This document shows, piece by piece, positions 22,945 to 54,517 of a DNA stretch of 64,000 nucleotides (position 1 is its first letter; each line of letters starts with the position of its first letter). The stretch lies in NCBI GenBank assembly GCA_021815315.1, contig JAKAHB010000002.1, positions 6,427 to 70,426 of the forward strand. Reading direction: 5' to 3'. The notes under the pieces were generated by a model, which saw only the letters and a list, made by a program, of their open reading frames with translations, was not told where the DNA came from and did no database searches. The translations under genes and the position numbers were made by a program. This DNA is from a bacterium. Its GTDB lineage: Bacteria > Patescibacteriota > Minisyncoccia > Portnoybacterales > JAKAHB01.

Positions 22945-23029
22945 GGGCGAGTGGCGAAACCGGCAGACGCGCACGACTCAAAATCGTGTGAGGCAACTCA
23001 TGAGGGTTCAAGTCCCTCCTCGCCCACCA
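22945..23029 (+). tRNA. tRNA-Leu (anticodon CAA), class II with a long variable arm and encoded CCA
   Basis: Hand-folded cloverleaf. Acceptor GGGCGAG/CTCGCCC, D-arm GCG-AAACCGGCAGA-CGC, anticodon stem CACGA/TCGTG with loop CTCAAAA, variable hairpin TGAG-GCAA-CTCA, T-arm GAGGG-TTCAAGT-CCCTC, then A-CCA. The acceptor helix is extended by an additional ~14-bp flanking inverted repeat (ttatcgcgaaaatggt / accattttcgcgata). Confidence 0.85.
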
Positions 23030-43977: not shown

Positions 43978-44865
43978 CTACCAGCCTCCGCTTGAACCTC
44001 CGCCGCCCGAGCCGCCTCCGCCAAAACCGCCAAAGCCCCCGCCCGAGCCGCCTCCAAACCCGCCGCCGCCAATCCACCAGGGATAACTGCGACCGGACGC
44101 TTTGGCCTTTGAATAACTGCGCGAAACGATAAAGTCAAACAAGAACCCAAAAGGAATTAAAATAGCGATGGAAATAAGCCCGAAGAAAACAAAGCCCTTA
44201 ATCAGCCCGATAATCACCCCCGCGATTCCACCGATAACTCCTCCGGCCCACCAAGTTTTGCTCCGCCCTAAAAGACTGCCCAGCCAAACAAAACCGAAAA
44301 CGACCAGCCAAATTACCCACTCAATCGTTTTTAGGCTCGTCTTGCCGGGACTAGTTGTTTTTTCTTCGGGGACATATTCGCCTTTAGTGGCGGCAATAAT
44401 TTTGTCCGCCGCGCCGTTAACGCCGGCATAATAGTCGCCTTGTTGGAAAGCCGGCTTCATTTCGTTGTTAATAATCCAAGAACTTTGGGCATCCGTCAAT
44501 GCACCCTCCAAGCCATAGCCGACTTCAATCCGCATTTTTTTATCCTCCAGCGCCACCAGCACCAAAATGCCGTTATCTTTTCCTTTTTTGCCAATGCCCC
44601 ACTGCTTAAAAAGCTCTACCGCAAAATTATCAATGGTATCGCCGTTGAGGCTCTTAATCGTCACAACGGAAATTTCGTTGCTGGAGTCCTTCTCAAAAGC
44701 AGCCAGCTTTTGTTCTAGTTTATTTTTCTGATCGGCGCTAAAAACTCCGGCGAAATCATTGACAAAACCGCTCGGAGAACCGGGGCTATAATAAGCCAAG
44801 GCTAAAGAAGCGGGCGCTAGCAAGATAAATGCCGCCAGAATTATTTTTTTGAGAAAATTAAACAC
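43978..44865 (-). CDS. TPM-domain protein (YgcG-like) with a Gly-rich C-terminus
   Basis: Signal peptide, TPM phosphatase-like core (ISVVTIKSL...GILVLVALEDKKMRIEVGYGLEG), a TM helix and a GGGFGGGSGGG tail. Confidence 0.75.
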   Translation of the reverse strand: MFNFLKKIILAAFILLAPASLALAYYSPGSPSGFVNDFAGVFSADQKNKLEQKLAAFEKDSSNEISVVTIKSLNGDTIDNFAVELFKQWGIGKKGKDNGILVLVALEDKKMRIEVGYGLEGALTDAQSSWIINNEMKPAFQQGDYYAGVNGAADKIIAATKGEYVPEEKTTSPGKTSLKTIEWVIWLVVFGFVWLGSLLGRSKTWWAGGVIGGIAGVIIGLIKGFVFFGLISIAILIPFGFLFDFIVSRSYSKAKASGRSYPWWIGGGGFGGGSGGGFGGFGGGGSGGGGSSGGW

Positions 44866-44982: not shown

Positions 44983-45537
44983 TTAGAATTTCACACTCGG
45001 CGCATTCTCCGCTCCTCCAGCCGCTTGAAAATATTTTTTCTCCGAGAAACCGAACATGGAAGCCAACCACTTGGCCGGCACTCTTTTAATCATCACATTA
45101 AAGTCTTTAGCCGTGTCGTTGAACCTTTTTCTCTCAACCGAAATCCTGTTTTCAGTTCCTTCCAGTTGCGCCATCAAAGTTTGCACGTTTTCAGCCGACT
45201 TTAACTGCGGGTAGTTTTCCATCACCACCAAGAGCCGGGAAAGGGCGGTTTCAACTTGCGTGGCCGCTTGCGCTTTGTCGTTCACGGTGGCGGCACCGGC
45301 GTATCTGGTTCTGGCTTCCGCCAAATTGTTAAAAATTGTTTGCTCCTGTTTCATTACCCCCTTAACCGATTCCACCAGATTAGGGATTAGATCCAAGCGC
45401 CTTTGGTATTGCGTTTGCACCTGCGCCCAGGCGTTATCCACGGTTTCGCTTCCCGTCACCATGCGGTTATAGGTCATCCAGGTGTATCCTCCCAGCACCA
45501 CGACGACGATTAAAACGGCTAACAAAATTTTGTTCAT
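44983..45537 (-). CDS. LemA family protein
   Basis: N-terminal TM helix and a LemA-like core (AWAQVQTQYQRRLDLIPNLVESVKG). LemA is commonly paired with a TPM protein. Confidence 0.85.
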   Translation of the reverse strand: MNKILLAVLIVVVVLGGYTWMTYNRMVTGSETVDNAWAQVQTQYQRRLDLIPNLVESVKGVMKQEQTIFNNLAEARTRYAGAATVNDKAQAATQVETALSRLLVVMENYPQLKSAENVQTLMAQLEGTENRISVERKRFNDTAKDFNVMIKRVPAKWLASMFGFSEKKYFQAAGGAENAPSVKF

Positions 45538-45623: not shown

Positions 45624-46172
45624 TCAAGTAAGCACCTCTTGCAAAAATTTATGGCTTTTGATTTCTTCCCCAGCTAATTCATTGATTTGTCTTAACAAAT
45701 TCTTGCCGGATGAATCATAACCCAAAACTTCCAAAATTCTTTTTTCAAAAGCAACCTTGATTTTCTCCGGCGCGTAATTTTTGTTGTTAAGCGTTTGAAA
45801 AACTTTGACGATAAATTGCCACGCCTCTTCGTCTCTTTCGGGAGCAACGATTGTTTTATCCAGCGTCTCGGCGATAAAAAAGGCCAGAGCCAGCCGGCGC
45901 ACATCCTCAAAAACGGTCGCGAAATACTCAATGGTTTCCGCTCCGGCCAGAACATCGGCCCAGGTTCTGCTCCGCACCAGCAAAAAACTGTTATGCGAAA
46001 AAGGCTCCAAAAACCCTTTCAGCTTTGATTCTTTTTTGCGTACCCCTTTGGCCTTGACATAGATTTTGCCACGGTTGCGCGTATAGACGGTCAAAATGGC
46101 GTCAACGTCGTTTGACTGCTCTTTATTCAAAACAATGCCTTCGGTTTTATAGAGAAGTTCTTTGCTAAACAT
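45624..46172 (-). CDS. recO: DNA repair protein RecO
   Basis: 182 aa with an N-terminal OB fold (TEGIVLNKEQSNDVDAILTVYTRNRGKIYVKAKG). Confidence 0.65.
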   Translation of the reverse strand: MFSKELLYKTEGIVLNKEQSNDVDAILTVYTRNRGKIYVKAKGVRKKESKLKGFLEPFSHNSFLLVRSRTWADVLAGAETIEYFATVFEDVRRLALAFFIAETLDKTIVAPERDEEAWQFIVKVFQTLNNKNYAPEKIKVAFEKRILEVLGYDSSGKNLLRQINELAGEEIKSHKFLQEVLT

Positions 46173-46229: not shown

Positions 46230-49200
46230 CTACTTTTTAATCCCGACTTTAATCACGCCGCTGTTAACCTTAACCTCGCTCACGACATCATATTGGCCTG
46301 TCTCTTCAAACGCACCCGTTTGTTTAGCTCGCCAAACGGAACTTTGTTCATCGGCAAAAATAGATTTGTCGCTCAAGGCCAAAATGCTCACCGTGTCTTC
46401 GGGCTTAAGCCCCAGCTCTTTTCTCATTTGGGCGTAGTGGCGCTCCACTTCTCTTTTTGTCCCCTCCTTTTTTAACTCGTCGGTTATCTCCAAGTCCAAA
46501 TCAAAATTCTCGCCTGTTTTAACTTCTTTGACATTAATCTCGTCAGCAACCAGGGCCAGCAATTTTTCACTTAATTTTACTTCAACGGTCAAACCGGCCA
46601 AGGGCTGACGAATTTTAATGCCAGCTTCGGCGCGTTTGGCCAAGGCCCTAGCCACGACTTCTCGCGCCAGAATCATTTCTTTTTCCAAGTCTTCGTCAAT
46701 TAAGTTTCTATCGGCCACGGGGTAATCAGCCAAATGCACCGACTCTTGGTCTTTTTTCGCTCTCAAATTTTGATATATTTCCTCGGTGATAAACGGAGCA
46801 AACGGCGCCAGCAGTTTGACTAACCCCAGCAAAATAAAATGCAGAGTTTGGGTCGCTTCTTCTTTTTCTTTTGCGTCTTTGGGCCTTTGAAAACGTTCTC
46901 GCGAACGGCGAATATACCAATTGGAAAGCTCGTCAATAAAGTCTTCAATCAAGCGCGCCGCGCTGACAACGTCGTATCTCTCCAGGTGATCCGTTACAGT
47001 CGCCGTCAAAGAATTAAACCTGGAAACAATCCAACGATCAAGCAAATTCTTGGATTTTGTTTCGCTCGATTTGAAGTTTTTATTTTGGTAGGTTCGCAAA
47101 AACATAAAAGAGTTCAGCAGCGTTCCAAAAATTCTCCTGTTTTTGTCCAACACGTCTTTGGTATCAAACCGCTTGGAACCGCCTGCCTGATTAACCGTGT
47201 ATAAATACCAACGCAACGTGTCGGCGCCGAATTTTTCGCACATCTCCCACGGGTCAACCACGTTGCCTTTGGACTTGGACATTTTTTTGCCTTGAGCGTC
47301 CAACACGTGCCCCAAACAAATTACGTTCCGATAAGGCGCGCCGTCTTCCACCACCCCGCAATGTTCCATCAAGGTAGCAACGGCCAGCAGGGTATAAAAC
47401 CAACCGCGGGTTTGGTCTATGGCTTCACAAATATAGTCGGCCGGATAGTGATTTTTAAACTTGACCGCGCTGTCTTCTTTTTGCGGATAACCCCATTGCG
47501 AAAAAGGCATGGAACCCGAATCAAACCAAACATCCAAAACGTCTTTTTCTCTTTGCATCTGCCCGCCGCACTTGCAAGCAAGCTTTAAATCGTCAAGATA
47601 GGGGCGGTGCAAGTCCAGTTCATAATTTTGATTATGCGGCAGGGGCGCAAAGTCAATCTCTTTAAACTCGGCGTTTTCCAAAAAGTTTTCTTCGCCGTTT
47701 TCCAGGTGGACTAAGGCAACAGCCTCTTTGGGGTTAAAGCCTTGCGACCCAGATTCCATCAGCCAAAGAGGAAAGTTGTGGCTGACCACCAGAATATTCC
47801 GGTTTTTATATTTTTGCTCCAGCTCATAGATAAATTCGGTCACCCGATTCTTGACCCGGTTTAACGTCTCTCCGTTTTCCGGCGCCAAATTGAATCTTTC
47901 TTCCAGACTGGTAAAATTTCTGTATTCCTCGTCACTTTGGCCGTCCAATACTCCGGTAAAAATTTCTCTTAGTCTTTCGTCAAAAACAATTTTATTTTTA
48001 TCCATCCCCAACGCTTCAGCCGCCATTTCGGCTGTTTGTTTGGTCCGCAAGAAATCTGAGGCGAAAATTAAATCTATTTTTTCTTTAGTCAGTTTGGCCA
48101 CGGCTTGTTTCACTTGTTCTTGCCCCGTCTCGGTTAAAGCCAGATGATTGGTCTTAATGTTGCCGTTTAGAACATTTTTAATGTTGTTTTCAGCTTGTCC
48201 GTGACGCATCAAAAAATATTTGTTACCCGAAGACACGACTTGTTTTTTCAGTTCTTCCGGAGAACCGATCATTTCCTGCCAGCCACATTGTTCGCATTGC
48301 CAAACCGGCAAAGGAGTTCCCCAATATCGTTCCCGCGACAAGGCCCAGTCCTTGGCTTCTTTGATAAACTCGCCGAAGCGCCCATCTTTGATGTGGGCCG
48401 GTTCCCAATTAATTTTTTGGTTGTTGGCTACTAGCTCCTTTCGTAATTGAGACATCCTGATAAACCAAGATTCTTTGGCGTAATAGAGCAGGGGACTGTC
48501 GCAACGCCAGCAAAAAGGATAGTCGTGCTCATATGGCTCTTCTTCCAAAAGCAAATTTCTTTTTTTCAGATCTTCAATAATGTCCTCATCTGCTTCTTTA
48601 ACAAATTTGCCCTCGCCCGGGATGCCAAAGCCCGACATAATAATGCCTTCCTTATCAACCGTATGAATGACCGATAATCCCTCTTTCACGCCCACCGCCA
48701 TATCGTCTTCGCCGTAAGCAGGAGCCAAATGCACAATGCCGGTGCCATCTTGCGTGGAAACAAAATCCCCGGCCACAACCTCCAGATCGGTTTCTTTTTG
48801 GTCGGGGTTTTTGAAAAGAGGTTCGTATTTTAAATTAAGGAGTCCTTCGCCTTTCAGCTCTTTGATTATTTCGCCTTCAGGGCTTATCGCCTCAAGCCTG
48901 TCTTTGGCTAAAATAAAAAATTCCCCTGACTTCTTATCTTTGACTTGGCAGTAAACTACTTTTGAGTTCACCGCTAACCCCACGTTCGCCGGTAAAGTCC
49001 AGGGCGTGGTCGTCCAAACCAGAAAATAGGTATTTGGTTCCCCCACTACCGGGAATTTCACGTAAATGGAGTTTTCCTTGACTTTCTTATAACCCTGCGC
49101 CACCTCGTGGCTGGAAAGGCTGGTGCCGCAACGCGGACAGTGCGGCACAATTTTAAATCCCTTATAAATTAATTCTTTGTCCCAAACTTTTTTCAGAATT

Positions 49201-49658
49201 TGCCAAATGCTGGTTATAAAATAGTTTTCGTAAGTGACATAGGGATCTTCCAAGTCCACCCAGTAAGCGATTCTTTGCGTCAACTTTTCCCATTCATCCT
49301 TATAACGCCAGACGCTTTCTTTGCACTTTTGATTAAATTTCTCAATGCCGTATTTTTCAATGTCTTTTTTGTTTTTCAGTCCCAACTCTTTTTCCACTTG
49401 CAATTCCACCGGCAAACCGTGAGTGTCCCAACCGGCTTTGCGGTCAACAAAAAAGCCCTGCATTGTTTTAAAACGTGGGATAATGTCCTTGAACGCCCGA
49501 GCTTCCACGTGATGAATCCCCGGCCGACCGTTGGCTGTCGGCGGCCCCTCAAAAAAAACAAAGTTCTTCGCCCCCCTGTTTTTTTCCAGACTCTTTCGGA
49601 AAATATTTTTCTCTTGCCAGAATTTTAAGATTTTTTCTTCAATTTGAGCGAAATTCAT
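46230..49658 (-). CDS. ileS: isoleucyl-tRNA synthetase (type 2) with an inserted histidine-phosphatase domain
   Basis: 1142 aa. HIGH-like PTANGRPGIHH, CWRC and CEQC zinc knuckles, and KMSKSKGN. Residues 476 to 675 (DNA about 47634-49233) form a complete PGAM-like histidine-phosphatase module (LMRHGQAEN...RTKQTAE...VVSHNFP) not normally present in IleRS. Confidence 0.9.
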   Translation of the reverse strand: MNFAQIEEKILKFWQEKNIFRKSLEKNRGAKNFVFFEGPPTANGRPGIHHVEARAFKDIIPRFKTMQGFFVDRKAGWDTHGLPVELQVEKELGLKNKKDIEKYGIEKFNQKCKESVWRYKDEWEKLTQRIAYWVDLEDPYVTYENYFITSIWQILKKVWDKELIYKGFKIVPHCPRCGTSLSSHEVAQGYKKVKENSIYVKFPVVGEPNTYFLVWTTTPWTLPANVGLAVNSKVVYCQVKDKKSGEFFILAKDRLEAISPEGEIIKELKGEGLLNLKYEPLFKNPDQKETDLEVVAGDFVSTQDGTGIVHLAPAYGEDDMAVGVKEGLSVIHTVDKEGIIMSGFGIPGEGKFVKEADEDIIEDLKKRNLLLEEEPYEHDYPFCWRCDSPLLYYAKESWFIRMSQLRKELVANNQKINWEPAHIKDGRFGEFIKEAKDWALSRERYWGTPLPVWQCEQCGWQEMIGSPEELKKQVVSSGNKYFLMRHGQAENNIKNVLNGNIKTNHLALTETGQEQVKQAVAKLTKEKIDLIFASDFLRTKQTAEMAAEALGMDKNKIVFDERLREIFTGVLDGQSDEEYRNFTSLEERFNLAPENGETLNRVKNRVTEFIYELEQKYKNRNILVVSHNFPLWLMESGSQGFNPKEAVALVHLENGEENFLENAEFKEIDFAPLPHNQNYELDLHRPYLDDLKLACKCGGQMQREKDVLDVWFDSGSMPFSQWGYPQKEDSAVKFKNHYPADYICEAIDQTRGWFYTLLAVATLMEHCGVVEDGAPYRNVICLGHVLDAQGKKMSKSKGNVVDPWEMCEKFGADTLRWYLYTVNQAGGSKRFDTKDVLDKNRRIFGTLLNSFMFLRTYQNKNFKSSETKSKNLLDRWIVSRFNSLTATVTDHLERYDVVSAARLIEDFIDELSNWYIRRSRERFQRPKDAKEKEEATQTLHFILLGLVKLLAPFAPFITEEIYQNLRAKKDQESVHLADYPVADRNLIDEDLEKEMILAREVVARALAKRAEAGIKIRQPLAGLTVEVKLSEKLLALVADEINVKEVKTGENFDLDLEITDELKKEGTKREVERHYAQMRKELGLKPEDTVSILALSDKSIFADEQSSVWRAKQTGAFEETGQYDVVSEVKVNSGVIKVGIKK

Positions 49659-49784
49659 TAATTTGCGGTTTGGTTAGATTGCTTATTTCACCCTCAAATA
49701 ATAGCTTAAAACAGGGCCTAAAGTCAAAGAGCGGCTATCGGTTTGGACCGCCAAAAAATAATATCGTCATGGTATAATCATAAT

Positions 49785-50816
49785 ATGAAAGAATCAATTC
49801 TCTATAAAAAATTGCCTCGTCAAAATACGCAGTGCCAAACCTGCGCCCATTATTGTATTTTAAAACCCGGCCAGCGCGGTCTCTGTGGCGCGCGAGAAAA
49901 CATCGGCGGCCGACTCTATTTCCTGCCGTACGAAACGGTCGTGGCCCATGCGGTTGACCCGATGCGCAAAAAGCCATTCTATCATTTCATGCCCGGGACC
50001 GTCACTTATTCTTTCGCCACTGTAGGCTGTAATTTTCACTGCCAAAACTGCCAGAACTTCACAATTTCCCAGGCTCCCAAAAATTCGGGACTGCGCCGCG
50101 AGCAAATAGCGGATTTTGGAGAAAAAATGACGCCCCAAGACATTGTCCGCGAAGCCAAGGCTTTTGGCTGCCCCAGTATTTCCTACACCTATACCGAACC
50201 GGCCGTCTTTTTAGAGTTGGCCCTAGACACCATGAAGCTGGCGCGCCAAGAAGGACTGAAAAATGTTTGGATTTCCAACGGGTTTTTAAGTTCGGAGACA
50301 AGGAAGAAAATAAGAAAATACGTTGATGCGGTTAATATTGACATCAAGTCCTTCAACGACAAGTTCTATAAAGAAAGTTGCGGCGGCCGACTCGCGCCCG
50401 TGCTTGAAACTTGCCGCGAATTTAAAGAATGGAATATCTGGACGGAAATCACCACCTTGATAATCCCCGGGCTTAACGACAGCAAAGACGAGCTGAAACA
50501 AATTGCTCATTTTGTCGCCGATAAACTCGGAGCGGAAACTCCTTGGCACATTTCTCGTTTCTCGCCGGAAATTTCCTGGCAATTAAAAGAGCTCAAAGCA
50601 ACGCCGATTAAAAAATTGAAAGAGGCCTATGAAATCGGCAAGGGCGCCGGTTTAATGTATGTCTATGTCGGCAACGTTCCGGGCACGAAATTTCAAGATA
50701 CTTTTTGTCCCAAATGCAAAACCAAAAACATTGATCGCAGCGGTTTTCGCGCCCATCGTTTGGACAAAAAAGGCCAGTGCCACAACTGCGGTTTTGATTT
50801 GAATATTCATGAATAA
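49785..50816 (+). CDS. AmmeMemoRadiSam system radical SAM enzyme (AmrS-like)
   Basis: CNFHCQNCQN radical-SAM cluster motif preceded by LYKKL...CQTCAHYC...GLCGAREN, which is AmrS-like. Start taken at ATG 49785. Confidence 0.8.
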   Translation: MKESILYKKLPRQNTQCQTCAHYCILKPGQRGLCGARENIGGRLYFLPYETVVAHAVDPMRKKPFYHFMPGTVTYSFATVGCNFHCQNCQNFTISQAPKNSGLRREQIADFGEKMTPQDIVREAKAFGCPSISYTYTEPAVFLELALDTMKLARQEGLKNVWISNGFLSSETRKKIRKYVDAVNIDIKSFNDKFYKESCGGRLAPVLETCREFKEWNIWTEITTLIIPGLNDSKDELKQIAHFVADKLGAETPWHISRFSPEISWQLKELKATPIKKLKEAYEIGKGAGLMYVYVGNVPGTKFQDTFCPKCKTKNIDRSGFRAHRLDKKGQCHNCGFDLNIHE

Positions 50817-51606
50817 TTTTGCCGCTATCACTCCCCATCCGCCAATCGCGGTTTCGGGAATAGGCCGGGGAGAAATTAAAAAAATTCCAAAGACCATCCA
50901 GGCTTTCCGAGCGCTGGGAGAGAAGTTTGCCGTCTCTCAAATTGAAACGACTGTTATTATCTCTCCCCACGGCCAATCAAGCTTTGATGCCTTCAACTTG
51001 GGCGGCTCCTTGGCCATGTCCGGCGATTTTGAAAATTTCGGCCACGGGGAAATTAGTTTCAGCTTTTCCGGCGATCCGAAACTAGCCCGACAAATCGCGG
51101 GAAAAGCCGCCCAAGAAAAAATCCCCTGCCGGCTTATTGATTACCCCTCTTTGGATCACGGCCTGCTGGTGCCACTTTATTTTTTGACCAGCCAACAAGA
51201 AGCGACTACCAAGCTTTTGCCGGTATTTTTTTCCGGGTTATCGTTGCAACAACATTTTTCTTTCGGCCAAGCGTTGGGCCAAGTCATAAAAGCCAGCGAT
51301 CAAAAAATCGCCCTGGTGGCTTCGGGCGATTTGTCGCATTGTTTGTCCCCCAACGCCCCCGGCGGATTTTCATCGCAAGGCAAAATTTTTGACGAGACGT
51401 TGATTAACCTGATTCAAGAAAAAAGATGGGCGGAGATTGTAAATCTGGACTCGGAACTTATTGCGGGGGCAGGTGAGTGCGGTTTACGTTCAATTATCAT
51501 TTTGCTTGGCGCCTTAGCCGAGATTAACAAAAATTTCTCGCTGGACATCCGCTCCTACGAAGCACCTTTTGGCGTGGGCTATTTAACCGCCGAAGCGAAA
51601 TTTTGA
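50809..51606 (+). CDS. LigB/Memo-superfamily protein (probable AmmeMemoRadiSam system protein B)
   Basis: 265 aa. ITPHPP...VIISPHGQS resembles class III extradiol dioxygenase/Memo folds. It overlaps the AmrS stop by 8 nt. Confidence 0.55.
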   Translation: MNNFAAITPHPPIAVSGIGRGEIKKIPKTIQAFRALGEKFAVSQIETTVIISPHGQSSFDAFNLGGSLAMSGDFENFGHGEISFSFSGDPKLARQIAGKAAQEKIPCRLIDYPSLDHGLLVPLYFLTSQQEATTKLLPVFFSGLSLQQHFSFGQALGQVIKASDQKIALVASGDLSHCLSPNAPGGFSSQGKIFDETLINLIQEKRWAEIVNLDSELIAGAGECGLRSIIILLGALAEINKNFSLDIRSYEAPFGVGYLTAEAKF

Positions 51607-51775: not shown

Positions 51776-53368
51776 CTACATTTTCTCTGGCGCAGAAATG
51801 CCTAGGATTCCCTCCAGTGAATCTTGCAAAACAATTTTAGTTGCCTTCACCAGTTGCAATCTGGCGTTTTGCAGGTTTTTATCTTCACCCAATACCCGGC
51901 AATTTTCATAAAACTTATGAAACGCCGTCACCAGGCCCAAAACATACTGTGGAACACGCTGAACTTGATAATCCACCGCCGTATCCGCGATAATTTCGGG
52001 GTATTTTACAAGCTGCCGAATCAAGTTTAATTCTTCCTTGGCCTCAAGCAGTTTCAAATTTTCCGTTTCTTCTTTTTTGTTCTCGTCTTTTGTTTTAGTC
52101 AAAATACTTTCTATTCTGGCGTGCCCGTACTGCGCGTAATAAACCGGGTTTTTTTGCGATTGTTCTTTGGCCAGCGCCAAATCAAAATCCATATGCGTGT
52201 TGGCTGAATACATGGCCATAAAAAATCGGAAAGCGTCGCGCCCCACTTCTGCCAGCACTTCATCCACCGTCACATAAACTCCTTTTCTCTTGGACATCCT
52301 GACTTCCCGGCCCTCTTGCACTAAGCGCACAAACTGCATCAATAAAATTTCAAAAGAGGTTTTATCAAGTCCCAAAGAGGCCACAAATCCCTTCACGCGC
52401 GCCACATCGCCGTGATGATCGGCTCCCCAAACATTGATTACCCTATTAAATTTTCTTTCAATAAATTTATTGTAATGATAGGCGCAATCAACGCCAAAGT
52501 AAGTCGGCTCGCCATCGCTTTTTTTAAGCGGCCGGTCTTTTTCATCGCCGAATTTCTCGGCCATAAACCACAAAGCGCCGTCTTTTTCGTAAGCTAAATT
52601 TTGTTTTCTTAAGAGGTTAAAAACGTCTTCAACTTTTCCGGAATCGCGCAGTTCTTTTTGTTCGGAGAACCAAACGTCCAGCTTGATGCCCATGGCCGCC
52701 ACCGTCTTTTTAATCTGTTCTGCAATAATGGCCTGCGCTTTTTGGCCGACGATTTTTGGGTCGGTGCTCTCTATTTGCGAGGCCAGTTCGTCAATATAGC
52801 CCCCTTTGTATTCGGCTTCTTCATCTTTCAAAATTGAATGGCCCAGTTTTTCAATTTGTCCACCCGCATCGTTGACGTAGTATTCTTTGGTAACGTCGTA
52901 GCCCGATTTTTTCAAAATATTTCCCAACACGTCGCCATAAACCCCGCCCCGACCATTGCCCAGCGTTAAGGGGCCAGTGGGGTTGGCAGAAATAAATTCC
53001 ACTTGAGCCTTTTTGTTTTGGCCTGAATTATTTTCCCCGTATTCCTCCCCTTGGGCCAAAATTTTCCCGACTTGATTTTGCAAAAATTCATCGGACAAAT
53101 AAAAATTAACAAAGCCGGGACTGACCGCTTCAATTTTGGAAAAAAATTGTTCTTTGTTTTGGTTCACGATGCTTTCGGCCATCTGCTGGGCAATTTCAAG
53201 CGGCGATTTTTTTGTTGTCTTGGCCAAAACAAAAGCCATGGAGCTAGAAAAGTCTCCTAAAGCGGAATTTTTAGGGCGTTCGGTTAAAATTTCTGATTCT
53301 TCAATTTTTGTCCCAAAAAGATTTCCGATCTCCCGAGCCAATATTTTTTGGATCTCTTCGCGCATCAT
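51776..53368 (-). CDS. argS: arginyl-tRNA synthetase
   Basis: 530 aa with the class I HIGH region (ANPTGPLTLGNGRG) and a DALR anticodon-binding C-terminus. Confidence 0.9.
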   Translation of the reverse strand: MMREEIQKILAREIGNLFGTKIEESEILTERPKNSALGDFSSSMAFVLAKTTKKSPLEIAQQMAESIVNQNKEQFFSKIEAVSPGFVNFYLSDEFLQNQVGKILAQGEEYGENNSGQNKKAQVEFISANPTGPLTLGNGRGGVYGDVLGNILKKSGYDVTKEYYVNDAGGQIEKLGHSILKDEEAEYKGGYIDELASQIESTDPKIVGQKAQAIIAEQIKKTVAAMGIKLDVWFSEQKELRDSGKVEDVFNLLRKQNLAYEKDGALWFMAEKFGDEKDRPLKKSDGEPTYFGVDCAYHYNKFIERKFNRVINVWGADHHGDVARVKGFVASLGLDKTSFEILLMQFVRLVQEGREVRMSKRKGVYVTVDEVLAEVGRDAFRFFMAMYSANTHMDFDLALAKEQSQKNPVYYAQYGHARIESILTKTKDENKKEETENLKLLEAKEELNLIRQLVKYPEIIADTAVDYQVQRVPQYVLGLVTAFHKFYENCRVLGEDKNLQNARLQLVKATKIVLQDSLEGILGISAPEKM

Positions 53369-53465: not shown

Positions 53466-53544
53466 AACAAAAAACCGCTCTTGTCAATAGCGAGCTTCTA
53501 TGTTATGCTTTGCTATAAATAAACAGTCGGATCCGCGAGACAGT

Positions 53545-53994
53545 ATGAAAACGATTTCTGAAAATAAAAAAGCCCGTTTTGATTTTGAATTCCTGGAAAA
53601 TTTTGAGGCCGGTTTGGCGTTGTTTGGATTTGAGGTTAAAGCGATAAAAACAGGGCATATAAACCTGACCGGCTCCCACATTATTATTCGCGACGAAGAA
53701 GCGCTTTTGGTGGGCGTTAGCATCCCCCCCTATCAACCTAAAAACACTCCAGCGGGATATGATCTCCAACGCACTCGCAAGCTTTTATTGCGCAAACAAG
53801 AGATAAAAAGACTGGTTGGCCGCACTCAAGAAAAAGGCTTGACTTTGGTGCCAATTCGTGTGTATACTAAACAAAGTAAAATCAAGTTAGAGTTTGCTCT
53901 GGCTCGCGGTCGCGGTAAAGCCGACAAGAGGCAAAAAATCGCCAAACGTGACGCCCGGCGCAAGATTGAACTTGCCTTAAGGGGCAAATTTTGA
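53545..53994 (+). CDS. smpB: SsrA-binding protein
   Basis: Starts MKTISENKKARFDFEFLE...GLALFGFEVKAIK, which is SmpB-like. Start at the internal ATG 53545. tmRNA follows. Confidence 0.9.
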   Translation: MKTISENKKARFDFEFLENFEAGLALFGFEVKAIKTGHINLTGSHIIIRDEEALLVGVSIPPYQPKNTPAGYDLQRTRKLLLRKQEIKRLVGRTQEKGLTLVPIRVYTKQSKIKLEFALARGRGKADKRQKIAKRDARRKIELALRGKF

Positions 53995-54054: not shown

Positions 54055-54435
54055 GGGGACGCTAGGCTTCGACAGTCTGTCTAGCTTAGTATTCAAGCCG
54101 AGTACGCAGGAATCTCGCAAAACTTCTTGCAGTCTCACAAATGCCAACTTTATGGCTAGAGTGAAGAGCGCTTTCAGCGTCCCTTCATTCGCTACCGCTT
54201 TAGCTTAAAAACCTAGAGCCATCCGACTTACGGATACTCAATAAGTAAGATCCGGGTGTCATTTCATTGAGTTAGGCTAGGTCACGCTGTGGGATTTAGC
54301 CAAAACCAAAACAGCTACGGTTAAAAGATTTTGGTCCGCTTATATCTTCTAACCCGAACAAATTAAGCGGAATAAGCTTGTAAAATTACTAAGTAATGCC
54401 TGACTGGACAGGGGTTCAATTCCCCTCGTCTCCAC
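54055..54435 (+). ncRNA. ssrA: tmRNA (transfer-messenger RNA)
   Basis: 5' GGGGACGCUAGGCUUCGACAG resembles the tmRNA 5' end. 3' GGACAGGGGUUCAAUUCCCCUCGUCUCCACC gives a tRNA-Ala-like T-arm and acceptor with a G3-U70 pair. An internal tag ORF reads ...ARVKSAFSVPSFATALA-stop (about 54150-54208). Sits directly after smpB. Confidence 0.85.
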
Positions 54436-54517
54436 CGCGTTCGGGTTTAATGTTCTGCTTGAACGCGAATTAAAGACCAAGAACCCCCATTAAAGTCCAC
54501 CATTAAATTAACCATTC

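What the first reader, a model, noticed from the sequence alone, without database searches (positions are those of the whole stretch)
47634..49233. Histidine-phosphatase (PGAM-like) domain inserted inside isoleucyl-tRNA synthetase
The 1142-aa IleRS is about 100-200 aa longer than usual. Between the second zinc knuckle (WQCEQCGW) and the conserved DVWFDSG segment, a continuous in-frame block of about 200 aa carries the branch-1 histidine-phosphatase hallmarks. These are the 'LMRHGQAENN' RHG catalytic His, downstream Arg and Glu residues, and 'LVVSHNFP' for the second His. IleRS sequence resumes normally on both sides, so this is a domain insertion rather than a gene fusion at a terminus. I am not aware of a phosphatase module in this position of an aaRS. 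It could edit phosphorylated intermediates, act on tRNA 2',3'-cyclic or 3' phosphates, or moonlight in signalling.
Basis: partly seen in the sequence, partly recalled or inferred. Interest (0 to 1): 0.6.

Follow-up and report, generated by a model that had tools for sequence, protein, structure and literature searches.

The report
Phosphatase domain built into isoleucyl-tRNA synthetase
The enzyme that loads isoleucine onto its tRNA here carries a complete, apparently working phosphatase enzyme spliced into a surface loop of its catalytic core. The same pairing recurs across hundreds of ultra-small bacteria, either fused or as neighbouring genes, so it looks like a selected and apparently undescribed partnership whose substrate is unknown.

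Summary

It is not an assembly artefact. 88 of the 120 best IleRS relatives, all candidate-phyla-radiation bacteria, have the insertion at exactly this site. R485, H486, R538, E565 and H627 are invariant or nearly so. dN/dS is 0.08, against 0.07 for the IleRS body.

New findings:
- The same phosphatase family exists as a free ~190-aa gene. In 44 of 52 metagenomic loci it lies within 150 nt upstream of an insertion-free ileS.
- Some nested lineages have lost it cleanly.
- Other IleRSs carry copies at three further sites.
- One ValRS fragment carries four tandem copies.

I conclude it is a catalytically competent phosphomonoesterase whose physical or genetic linkage to IleRS is selected. It most likely acts as a tethered autonomous module on a diffusible phospho-substrate. 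That substrate is unidentified. I found no literature on it. Interest 0.68.

The parts
46230..49658 (-). ileS ORF, 1142 aa: type-2 isoleucyl-tRNA synthetase carrying the insertion
   Evidence: ORF. NCBIfam ileS equivalog scores 942.6 bits against a cutoff of 621.4. Best structural matches are P. megaterium IleRS2 (8c8w) and T. thermophilus IleRS (1ile). AF2 mean pLDDT 90.2, pTM 0.82.
47616..48236 (-). Inserted histidine phosphatase (branch 1) domain, aa 475-681, including short linkers
48198..48206 (-). RHG motif (R485, H486, G487). H486 is the predicted phospho-accepting nucleophile.
   Evidence: Coordinates verified. 88/88 carriers invariant. R and H are present in every embedded or free domain that is not truncated at this position. 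Aligns to the RH of PspA 4ij5.
48045..48047 (-). R538, second phosphate-binding arginine
   Evidence: 88/88 carriers invariant. 103/104 embedded and 85/85 free domains.
47964..47966 (-). E565, predicted general acid (E or D in all carriers)
   Evidence: E 54 and D 34 of 88 carriers. Aligns to the Glu of the 'IEIDHG' segment in PspA.
47868..47873 (-). G596-E597, the 'GE(S/T/N)' motif typical of PhoE/CobC-like phosphatases
   Evidence: Both residues are invariant in 88/88 carriers. In the wider set E597 is kept in 103/104 embedded and 85/85 free domains, G596 in 90/104 and 67/85.
47778..47780 (-). H627, second catalytic histidine (in 'SHNFP')
   Evidence: 88/88 carriers. 104/104 embedded domains.
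48285..48296 (-). First Cys pair of the CP3 zinc knuckle (C455-E-Q-C458), immediately upstream of the insertion
   Evidence: Invariant C455 and C458 in A1. [quoted passage not shown]
47568..47576 (-). Second Cys pair of the CP3 zinc knuckle (C695-K-C697), downstream of the insertion
   Evidence: Invariant C695 and C697. Coordinates verified.
47514..47534 (-). DVWFDSG motif, where the second half of the Rossmann fold resumes
47271..47285 (-). KMSKS signature motif
49509..49520 (-). Signature motif in its non-canonical form, G47-I-H-H50 (GXHH instead of HXGH)
   Evidence: 83 of 88 carriers and 32 of 32 non-carriers have GxHH. The motif is linked to mupirocin hyper-resistance in IleRS2 (PMC10485003).
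48990..49016 (-). CP1 editing-domain Thr-rich motif WTTTPWTLP. The editing domain is intact.
   Evidence: W215, T216-T218, P219, W220, T221 and L222 are invariant and P223 is kept in at least 90% of sequences in A1. Coordinates verified.
51776..53368 (-). ArgRS gene, the upstream member of the conserved block ArgRS-(phosphatase)-IleRS-RecO
   Evidence: Pfam. The same order appears in split-form loci and in a loss-form locus.
45624..46172 (-). RecO gene, the downstream member of the conserved block
   Evidence: Pfam. Synteny.

Best explanation
The gene encodes the organism's type-2 isoleucyl-tRNA synthetase. A complete histidine phosphatase of the PhoE/CobC/PspA kind (superfamily branch 1) is spliced into the zinc-knuckle loop of the CP3 subdomain, between the two halves of the catalytic Rossmann fold.

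Shown:
- The insertion is in frame and sharply delimited.
- It folds as a discrete, confident domain.
- It is shared by many Patescibacteria.
- It keeps every catalytic residue under purifying selection.

Inferred from the family's established chemistry: it hydrolyses phosphomonoesters through a covalent phospho-His486 intermediate. R485, R538 and H627 would hold the phosphate and E565 would act as the general acid.

Shown by comparative genomics: the phosphatase-IleRS pairing itself is conserved.
- The same phosphatase family occurs as a separate gene directly upstream of an insertion-free ileS.
- It occurs at four different positions in IleRS.
- It occurs in one to four copies.
- It occurs once in ValRS.
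- It has been cleanly lost in some nested lineages.

Inferred from that pattern: proximity or co-expression with the synthetase is selected, not an exact geometry. I therefore think the module works as an autonomous, tethered phosphomonoesterase on a diffusible phospho-compound connected with the Ile/Val charging reaction, such as a nucleotide by-product or a phosphorylated inhibitor or metabolite. I think it is less likely to be a precisely aimed tRNA-end phosphatase. It is an accessory, not part of aminoacylation chemistry. The substrate is not identified.
For: Domain identity:
- Pfam His_Phos_1 E=5e-32.
- PDB sequence hits to PspA, TIGAR, PhoE and CobC.
- The domain is confidently folded, with pLDDT 91-97.

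Site:
- Carriers have 228-249 aa between the Cys pairs and non-carriers 30-38 aa, with identical borders.
- CP3 is structurally variable among IleRSs (PMC7191050).

Not an artefact:
- 88 of the 120 top IleRS relatives carry the insertion.
- The identical protein occurs on 4 contigs, the longest 303 kb.

Selection:
- R485, H486, G487, R538, G569, G596, E597 and H627 are invariant in 88 carriers, and E565 is always E or D.
- The same holds in 104 embedded and 85 free domains from clusters at 50% identity.
- dN/dS is 0.08 for the insert and 0.068 for the flanks.

Coupling to IleRS:
- 5 of 6 free homologues examined lie between ArgRS and an insertion-free IleRS.
- In a metagenome scan, 44 of 52 free copies have ileS starting within 150 nt downstream, and 50 of 52 have it within the 4 kb available.
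- Embedded and ileS-adjacent free copies form one clade apart from other His_Phos_1 proteins.
- 98 of 102 extended hits are IleRS.
- Additional insertion sites exist after the second Cys pair, after WFDSG and after the stem-contact helix.
- A ValRS fragment carries 4 tandem copies.

Accessory nature:
- Nested insertion-free IleRSs have no adjacent phosphatase gene.

Small-molecule leaning:
- All nearest characterised relatives are metabolite phosphatases.
- The domain is acidic: pI 5.2 here, median 6.1 for embedded copies.
Against: - No substrate is identified. The domain scores below every NCBIfam equivalog cutoff, so specificity cannot be read from sequence.
- I could not obtain model coordinates, so the distance and orientation of H486 relative to the synthetic site, the editing site or the tRNA path are unknown.
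- The ArgRS-IleRS-RecO region is syntenic in these genomes anyway, so some of the adjacency signal may be inherited gene order rather than selection.
- The direction of change (fusion or fission) is unresolved. The NJ trees are interleaved and partly discordant: phosphatase identity is 70% where the host IleRS bodies are 41-50% identical.
- Net charge is a weak argument against RNA binding.
- The ValRS case rests on one truncated protein seen on 2 short contigs.
Confidence: 0.55

Rival explanations
1. Passenger enzyme. The domain is an ordinary housekeeping metabolite phosphatase or mutase with no functional link to aminoacylation. It happened to sit next to ileS and became fused by local rearrangement. 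The fusion persists because it is harmless and guarantees expression in a tiny genome.
For: The nearest relatives are all metabolic phosphatases. The ArgRS-IleRS-RecO block is syntenic even where the phosphatase is absent. The domain has been lost cleanly in nested lineages. CP3 is a permissive, variable site.
Against: The family is embedded at four distinct IleRS sites and in tandem copies, and once in ValRS. 98 of 102 extended hits are IleRS. Free copies stay within 150 nt of ileS in 44 of 52 loci across diverse lineages, and fused and split states occur among close relatives. Repeated, independent linkage to one enzyme type is hard to explain by neutral adjacency.
Confidence: 0.22
2. tRNA end-healing. 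The domain removes a 3'- or 2'-phosphate or pyrophosphate from the acceptor end of tRNA(Ile), for example after nuclease or toxin damage, so that IleRS can charge it. This is one of the reader's suggestions.
For: The domain lies within the connective-peptide region of the catalytic core, which surrounds the acceptor-end entry. This is general class Ia architecture, not measured here. The linkage to a tRNA-handling enzyme is conserved.
Against: No branch-1 histidine phosphatase among the structural neighbours acts on RNA ends. The domain is acidic. It also occurs as a free protein and at sites far apart in the sequence, including after the stem-contact fold, and in 2-4 copies. That fits poorly with a single aimed active site. 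Damage to tRNA 3' ends would not be specific to tRNA(Ile).
Confidence: 0.12
3. Protein phosphatase. The domain dephosphorylates IleRS itself or a partner protein, in the manner of SixA, PGAM5 or Sts-1. It might, for example, reverse inactivation by HipA-like kinase toxins, which are known to phosphorylate other class I synthetases.
Confidence: 0.08
4. Not a functional enzyme domain: an assembly chimera, an intein-like mobile insertion, or a degenerate structural filler.
For: None beyond the unusual architecture.
Against: There are 88 or more independent carriers, and the identical protein occurs on 4 contigs. Composition is smooth. There are no flanking repeats and no Hint/intein domain in Pfam. 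Catalytic residues are invariant. dN/dS is 0.08.
Confidence: 0.02

Closest known systems
Compact branch-1 histidine phosphatases: PspA phosphoserine phosphatase (4ij5), PhoE (1h2e), CobC alpha-ribazole phosphatase (6e4b), GpgP (6s2q)
   Different: All of these are free-standing metabolic enzymes. This one is embedded in an aminoacyl-tRNA synthetase or encoded directly beside it. It scores below every equivalog cutoff, so none of their substrates can be transferred to it.
Type-2 IleRS (IleRS2), e.g. P. megaterium IleRS2 (8c8u/8c8w) and T. thermophilus IleRS (1ile)
   Same: The body of the protein matches at 34-38% identity, TM 0.79-0.89 on the target. It has the zinc-binding CP3 of the Thermus type, the GXHH signature variant described for IleRS2 and a type-2 C-terminal region (DUF5915).
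   Different: Known IleRS2 structures have about 30-40 residues in the CP3 loop where this protein has a 207-aa enzyme domain. Neither of two recent IleRS evolution and structure papers that I searched by term mentions a phosphatase.
Other enzyme-domain fusions of histidine phosphatases or synthetases: the M. tuberculosis RNase H/acid phosphatase bifunctional protein (NCBIfam PRK07238), MutT1 Nudix+histidine phosphatase (3fjy), and IleRS with a GNAT domain (NCBIfam NF040702)
   Different: Judging from the NCBIfam alignment and the PDB descriptions, those proteins look like end-to-end domain fusions. Here the phosphatase is nested inside the catalytic core. The window protein scores far below the cutoffs of both models (80 against 326, and 331 against 1999).
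   Same: Same superfamily and the same catalytic His/Arg/Glu/His core. The archaeal short dPGM model is the top NCBIfam hit (86.6 bits).

Membership tests
Histidine phosphatase superfamily, branch 1 (Pfam PF00300) | Profile match above the curated gathering score | tested here: met
   111.5 bits against a cutoff of 21.7, E=5.3e-32, aa 482-648, covering profile positions 2-168 of 194.
Histidine phosphatase superfamily, branch 1 (Pfam PF00300) | Catalytic core: RHG with a nucleophilic His, a second Arg, an acidic general acid and a second His | tested here: met
   R485, H486, G487, R538, E565 and H627 are present. They are invariant, or E/D at 565, in 88 carriers and near-invariant in 189 further domains. 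They align to the same residues in PspA 4ij5.
Histidine phosphatase superfamily, branch 1 (Pfam PF00300) | Alpha/beta fold of the PGM/PhoE type | tested here: met
Histidine phosphatase superfamily, branch 1 (Pfam PF00300) | Phosphatase or mutase activity through a phospho-histidine intermediate | not testable with these tools
   Requires enzymology with wild type and H486A.
Cofactor-dependent phosphoglycerate mutase (dPGM) | Score above the NCBIfam equivalog or subfamily cutoff | tested here: not met
   dPGM_arch 86.6 against 225. GpmB 59 against 261. TIGR01258 30 against 81.7. All bacterial dPGM models score 47 bits or less against cutoffs above 300.
CobC, PspA and SixA (specific phosphatase equivalogs; PhoE has no model among the hits) | Score above the equivalog cutoff, so that substrate specificity can be transferred | tested here: not met
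   CobC 77.9 against 162.9. PspA 67.5 against 350. SixA 34.3 against 74.5. RNase H/acid phosphatase 84 against 326.
Isoleucyl-tRNA synthetase (TIGR00392 equivalog) | Score above the equivalog cutoff and presence of the class I signature motifs | tested here: met
   942.6 bits against a cutoff of 621.4. KMSKS 792-796, WFDSG 709-715, the signature motif as GIHH 47-50, and the editing motif WTTTPWTLP 215-223.
Type-2 IleRS (IleRS2) | Closer to IleRS2 than to IleRS1 in structure, with a type-2 C-terminal organisation and tolerance of the G/AXHH motif | tested here: met
   Foldseek E=6e-89 to PmIleRS2 against 1e-56 to PmIleRS1. MupA and MupB are the next-best NCBIfam hits. DUF5915 lies at the C terminus. 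The GIHH motif is present, and PMC10485003 reports G/AXHH only in IleRS2.
Intein or mobile in-frame element | Hint/intein domain or homing endonuclease, splice-junction residues, flanking repeats | tested here: not met
   No such Pfam domain. The borders read ...KKQV|VSSGN... and ...NYEL|DLHRP..., without Cys/Ser/Thr splice junctions. No flanking direct or inverted repeats.

The most novel reading that the evidence does not exclude
The phosphatase is a true functional partner of the branched-chain synthetases. This would be a previously unknown aaRS-coupled activity that acts on something made or bound by IleRS/ValRS. Candidates are removal of a phosphate or pyrophosphate block from tRNA(Ile), reversal of synthetase phosphorylation, or destruction of a phosphorylated inhibitor or nucleotide by-product at the enzyme. 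On this reading, the fused, split, multi-site and multi-copy forms are alternative solutions to keeping that activity at the synthetase in ultra-small symbiotic bacteria.
Probability: 0.3. Interest if true: 0.85.

Novelty: new variant of a known kind. Interest (0 to 1): 0.68.

Why it matters
Aminoacyl-tRNA synthetases are among the best-studied enzymes. Extra domains are well known in eukaryotes, but to my knowledge bacterial synthetases rarely carry a second catalytic domain. I found no report of a phosphatase nested in a class I catalytic core.

Here the combination is not a one-off:
- It is the majority state among the closest IleRS relatives of this protein, all from candidate-phyla-radiation lineages.
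- It recurs at several insertion sites.
- It has a split-gene counterpart.

This is the classic signature of a functional partnership. If the substrate is connected with charging, it would add a new accessory chemistry to translation in organisms with minimal genomes. It would also give a ready experimental system, because natural fused, split and deleted variants already exist. Even if it is only a passenger, it is a clean natural example of domain insertion, fission and loss at a permissive loop (CP3) of an essential enzyme.

In practice, NCBI records name many of these proteins (12 of the 13 NCBI-named carriers) only 'class I tRNA ligase family protein', so annotation could be improved.

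Tried and rejected
- Assembly chimera. Rejected because of many independent carriers, smooth GC content and the identical protein on 4 contigs.
- Intein or mobile element. Rejected because there is no Hint domain, no splice-junction residues and no flanking repeats.
- Editing-domain-less IleRS variants. The 915-980-aa hits with the phosphatase at about aa 260-300 turned out to be N-terminally truncated fragments that start inside CP1.
- A second phosphatase copy in the window. None found by a profile search of the six-frame translation.
- Reading substrate specificity from curated families. Every NCBIfam equivalog is below its cutoff.
- Measuring where the phosphatase pocket points. Model coordinates are not exposed and the afdb50 library was unavailable, so no geometry could be measured.
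- Genome-collection survey with a domain alignment. It failed for lack of conserved stretches. The single-protein scan used query-specific peptides and returned only 17 loci, 4 of them full-length carriers. The metagenome scan with a narrower alignment worked.
- Deciding fusion versus fission. A midpoint-rooted NJ tree places the split forms basal. Some of those IleRSs are a divergent subtype on long branches. The phosphatase tree interleaves free and embedded copies, and one pair is strongly discordant. Direction is left unresolved.
- Literature. Seven full-text searches aimed at the insertion and term searches in two IleRS papers found no description of it.


Full report
**1. What is in the sequence**

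The region lies inside one uninterrupted 1142-codon ORF on the minus strand, window 46230-49658.
- Pfam splits the protein into tRNA-synt_1 (aa 9-476, resuming at 703-849), His_Phos_1 (aa 482-648, E=5.3e-32, 111.5 bits against a gathering score of 21.7) and Anticodon_1 (aa 874-1020).
- NCBIfam's ileS equivalog is passed, 942.6 bits against a cutoff of 621.4.
- The predicted structure has mean pLDDT 90.2 and pTM 0.82. It matches type-2 IleRS best: P. megaterium IleRS2 8c8w at E=6e-89 and T. thermophilus 1ile.
- The finding's start coordinate is right. Its end (49233, aa 142) overshoots by 1 kb.

**2. Delimiting the insertion**

I aligned the 120 best relatives from a search of 5.8 billion proteins. 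The residues between the two Cys pairs C455/C458 and C695/C697 number either 30-38 (32 proteins) or 228-249 (88 proteins), with nothing in between.
- The borders are the same in all carriers. The host sequence runs '...IGSxEELxK', then the insert, then 'DLHRPYID...'.
- In this protein the insert is aa 475-681, which is window 47616-48236.
- The two Cys pairs are the zinc knuckle of the CP3 subdomain. [quoted passage not shown] It is therefore a structurally permissive site.
- GC content is smooth across the borders. No direct or inverted repeats flank the insert. There is no intein-type domain.

**3. The insert is a complete phosphatase under selection**

- Sequence search of the PDB gives the same neighbours. 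The residue-level alignment pairs R485/H486, R538, E565 and H627 with the catalytic residues of PspA.
- In the 88 carriers, R485, H486, G487, R538, G569, G596, E597 and H627 are invariant and position 565 is always E or D. Overall the domain is more divergent than its host, with median identity to the query of 39% against 57%.
- The pattern holds in 104 embedded and 85 free-standing domains drawn from a 1.84-billion-protein library clustered at 50% identity.
- Against the 85%-identical orthologue (locus L110), Nei-Gojobori dN/dS is 0.08 for the insert and 0.068 for the flanks. dS is high (1.1-1.8), so the ratios are approximate.
- The domain does not reach any NCBIfam equivalog cutoff: dPGM_arch 86.6 against 225, CobC 77.9 against 162.9, PspA 67.5 against 350, SixA 34.3 against 74.5. 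It is a member of the superfamily, but no known substrate can be assigned to it.

**4. Not an artefact, and taxonomically wide**

- Source names among the carriers include Nealsonbacteria, Wildermuthbacteria, Paceibacterota, Pacebacteria and Parcubacteria. One record dates from the first candidate-phyla-radiation genome sets (KKW19263.1).
- The exact window protein occurs on four contigs from three sources, the longest 303 kb.
- 12 of the 13 NCBI-named carriers are labelled only 'class I tRNA ligase family protein'.

**5. The pairing exists in three genetic states**

A search with the insert alone returned free-standing ~190-aa His_Phos_1 proteins at 35-45% identity.

Split state:
- Five of the six free homologues whose contigs I examined lie between the ArgRS gene and an insertion-free ileS of 941-966 aa.
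- The gap to ileS is 3 to 31 bp in four cases. In the fifth, three small genes intervene.
- The sixth sits on an archaeal-looking contig, belongs to an outgroup subfamily and is not near ileS.
- A metagenome scan with an alignment of the free proteins gave 80 loci. 52 were free copies with at least 900 nt of downstream sequence. Of these, 44 have ileS starting within 150 nt on the same strand, 5 within 2.5 kb, 1 farther away and 2 not within the 4 kb held.
- ArgRS ends within 200 nt upstream in 34 of 49 loci.
- Eleven of the 80 loci were embedded forms.

Fused state: the window has the same block with the phosphatase inside ileS. The order is IF3, tmRNA, SmpB, ArgRS, then two opposite-strand genes, then IleRS, then RecO.

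Absent state:
- Insertion-free IleRSs that nest among carriers in a tree of the flanking regions (P0076, P0012, P0008) have no phosphatase gene beside ileS.
- P0008's locus, like the window, has a radical-SAM gene upstream of ileS.

Relationships among the states:
- In a phosphatase tree, embedded and ileS-adjacent free copies form one clade with the two forms interleaved, apart from other His_Phos_1 proteins.
- Split-form IleRSs can be close to carriers. L051 and L055 are about 71% identical to P0095 over the flanks.
- Their CP3 loops are short, with no remnant of the domain.
- One pair is discordant. Free P0131 is 70% identical to the embedded domain of L036, while the two IleRS bodies are only 41-50% identical. 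Part of this reflects a divergent IleRS subtype in those genomes, with 'DVGNPWLDAGI' in place of 'DVWFDSG'.
- The identical borders in all CP3 carriers favour a single insertion followed by fissions and losses. The NJ trees cannot settle the direction.

**6. More sites, more copies, another host**

- Among the 150 best representatives, 98 of 102 proteins that extend beyond the domain have IleRS flanks.
- Some IleRSs of the 'PPFATG-PHYGH' type carry additional copies elsewhere. In query numbering these lie after the second Cys pair (about 699/700), between WFDSG and DQTRGWF (about 725-738), and after the stem-contact helix before the anticodon-binding domain (about 857-861).
- P0243 carries two copies at two sites. 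It represents six sequences on contigs of up to 1.06 Mb, and its gene neighbours (POR, PurA, DAHP synthase, an SLH protein) do not look like those of a typical candidate-phyla-radiation genome.
- P0247 is a ValRS fragment followed by four tandem phosphatase domains. It scores valS 411 bits against ileS 199. It is truncated and seen on only two short contigs, so it needs confirmation.

**7. How it most likely works**

Shown: a discrete, well-folded domain with the full catalytic set, under purifying selection, and persistently linked to IleRS.

Inferred from the chemistry of the superfamily (established knowledge of dPGM, PhoE and PspA): phosphoryl transfer to H486, with R485, R538 and H627 binding the phosphate and E565 as the proton donor, followed by hydrolysis.

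Inferred from the comparative pattern: the domain works equally as a free neighbour gene, at four positions and in multiple copies. Selection therefore appears to act on co-localisation or co-expression with the synthetase, not on one fixed geometry. That pattern, the acidic character of the domain (pI 5.2 here, median 6.1 for embedded copies) and the fact that all close structural relatives act on metabolites lead me to prefer a tethered autonomous phosphomonoesterase acting on a diffusible phospho-compound linked to Ile/Val charging.

Clean losses show that it is accessory.

I rate the existence and catalytic competence of the inserted domain at 0.9 or higher, selected coupling to IleRS at about 0.6, and the small-molecule reading at about 0.45. 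The substrate is unknown. The rivals are a neutral passenger, a tRNA end phosphatase and a protein phosphatase. They are set out in their own section with the results that would decide between them.

**8. Comparison with what is known, and novelty**

- The host is an ordinary member of IleRS2, and the guest is an ordinary member of histidine phosphatase branch 1. The combination is what is new.
- Partial precedents are the end-to-end fusions of CobC-like domains with RNase H (NCBIfam PRK07238) and with Nudix (MutT1, 3fjy), and an NCBIfam model for IleRS with a GNAT domain.
- Seven full-text searches aimed at the insertion, and term searches in two recent IleRS evolution and structure papers, found no mention of a phosphatase in IleRS. 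The library lacks most subscription journals, so absence there is not proof.
- I class it as a new variant of a known kind and score interest at 0.68.

**9. Limits**

- Trees are neighbour-joining on identity-based distances.
- Whole genomes could not be inspected, so I could not ask which other phosphatases or mutases these organisms have.

Noticed in passing
window 49509-49520 (-), aa 47-50: The class I signature motif is the non-canonical G-I-H-H (GXHH) instead of HXGH. 83 of 88 carriers and all 32 non-carriers share GxHH. In IleRS2 this swap raises the mupirocin Ki up to about 1000-fold (PMC10485003), so this whole clade is predicted to be hyper-resistant to mupirocin.
   Followed up: partly
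protein P0247 (ENA, 2 contigs, longest 3947 nt): A ValRS fragment, not IleRS (NCBIfam valS 411 bits against ileS 199), followed by four tandem histidine phosphatase domains of the same family. The protein runs off the contig, so the full architecture is unknown.
   Followed up: partly
proteins P0243, P0291, P0294; locus L029 8001-12260: IleRSs of the PPFATG-PHYGH type carry 2-3 phosphatase copies at other sites: after the second CP3 Cys pair, after WFDSG, and between the stem-contact helix and the anticodon-binding domain. P0243 is on contigs of up to 1.06 Mb, next to POR, PurA, DAHP synthase and an SLH protein, so probably not in a typical candidate-phyla-radiation genome.
   Followed up: partly
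loci L001, L030, L041, L093 (ileS downstream of the free phosphatase gene): These split-form IleRSs have 'DVGNPWLDAGI' where other IleRSs have 'DVWFDSG', and 'LPIFECxCG' in CP3. They are a divergent IleRS subtype on a long branch. Their phosphatase is nevertheless 70% identical to a domain embedded in a very different IleRS (L036).
   Followed up: partly
window 49743-50816 (+) and 50809-51606 (+): A radical-SAM protein and a LigB/Memo-like protein overlap by 8 nt (an AmmeMemoRadiSam-like pair). They lie on the opposite strand between ArgRS and IleRS, interrupting the otherwise conserved block. A radical-SAM gene also sits upstream of ileS in the closest relatives (L028, L110). No AMMECR1 partner was looked for.
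   Followed up: no
window 54055-54436 (+) and 53500-53994 (+): A tmRNA gene with tag peptide ANFMARVKSAFSVPSFATALA lies directly downstream of smpB and upstream of infC. The only tRNA gene in 64 kb is tRNA-Leu(CAA) at 22945-23029.
   Followed up: no
window 43978-44865 (-) and 44983-45537 (-): A LemA protein is followed by a TPM-domain protein (Pfam family name TPM_phosphatase). The latter ends in a transmembrane stretch and a long Gly/Ser-rich tail, GGGGFGGGSGGGFGGFGGGGSGGGGSSGGW. This is a second, unrelated phosphatase-annotated family, 1.4 kb downstream of ileS.
   Followed up: no
window 46839-47204 (+) and 49200-49628 (+): ORFs of 121 and 142 aa lie on the strand opposite to ileS, entirely inside it. 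They are most likely spurious antisense ORFs. They were not examined further.
   Followed up: no
NCBIfam NF040702 (listed): NCBI curates a model for 'isoleucine--tRNA ligase, N-acetyltransferase domain-containing'. IleRS therefore hosts at least one other enzymatic domain in some lineages. No comparable model was among the NCBIfam matches for the phosphatase-containing form, which NCBI records mostly name 'class I tRNA ligase family protein'.
   Followed up: no
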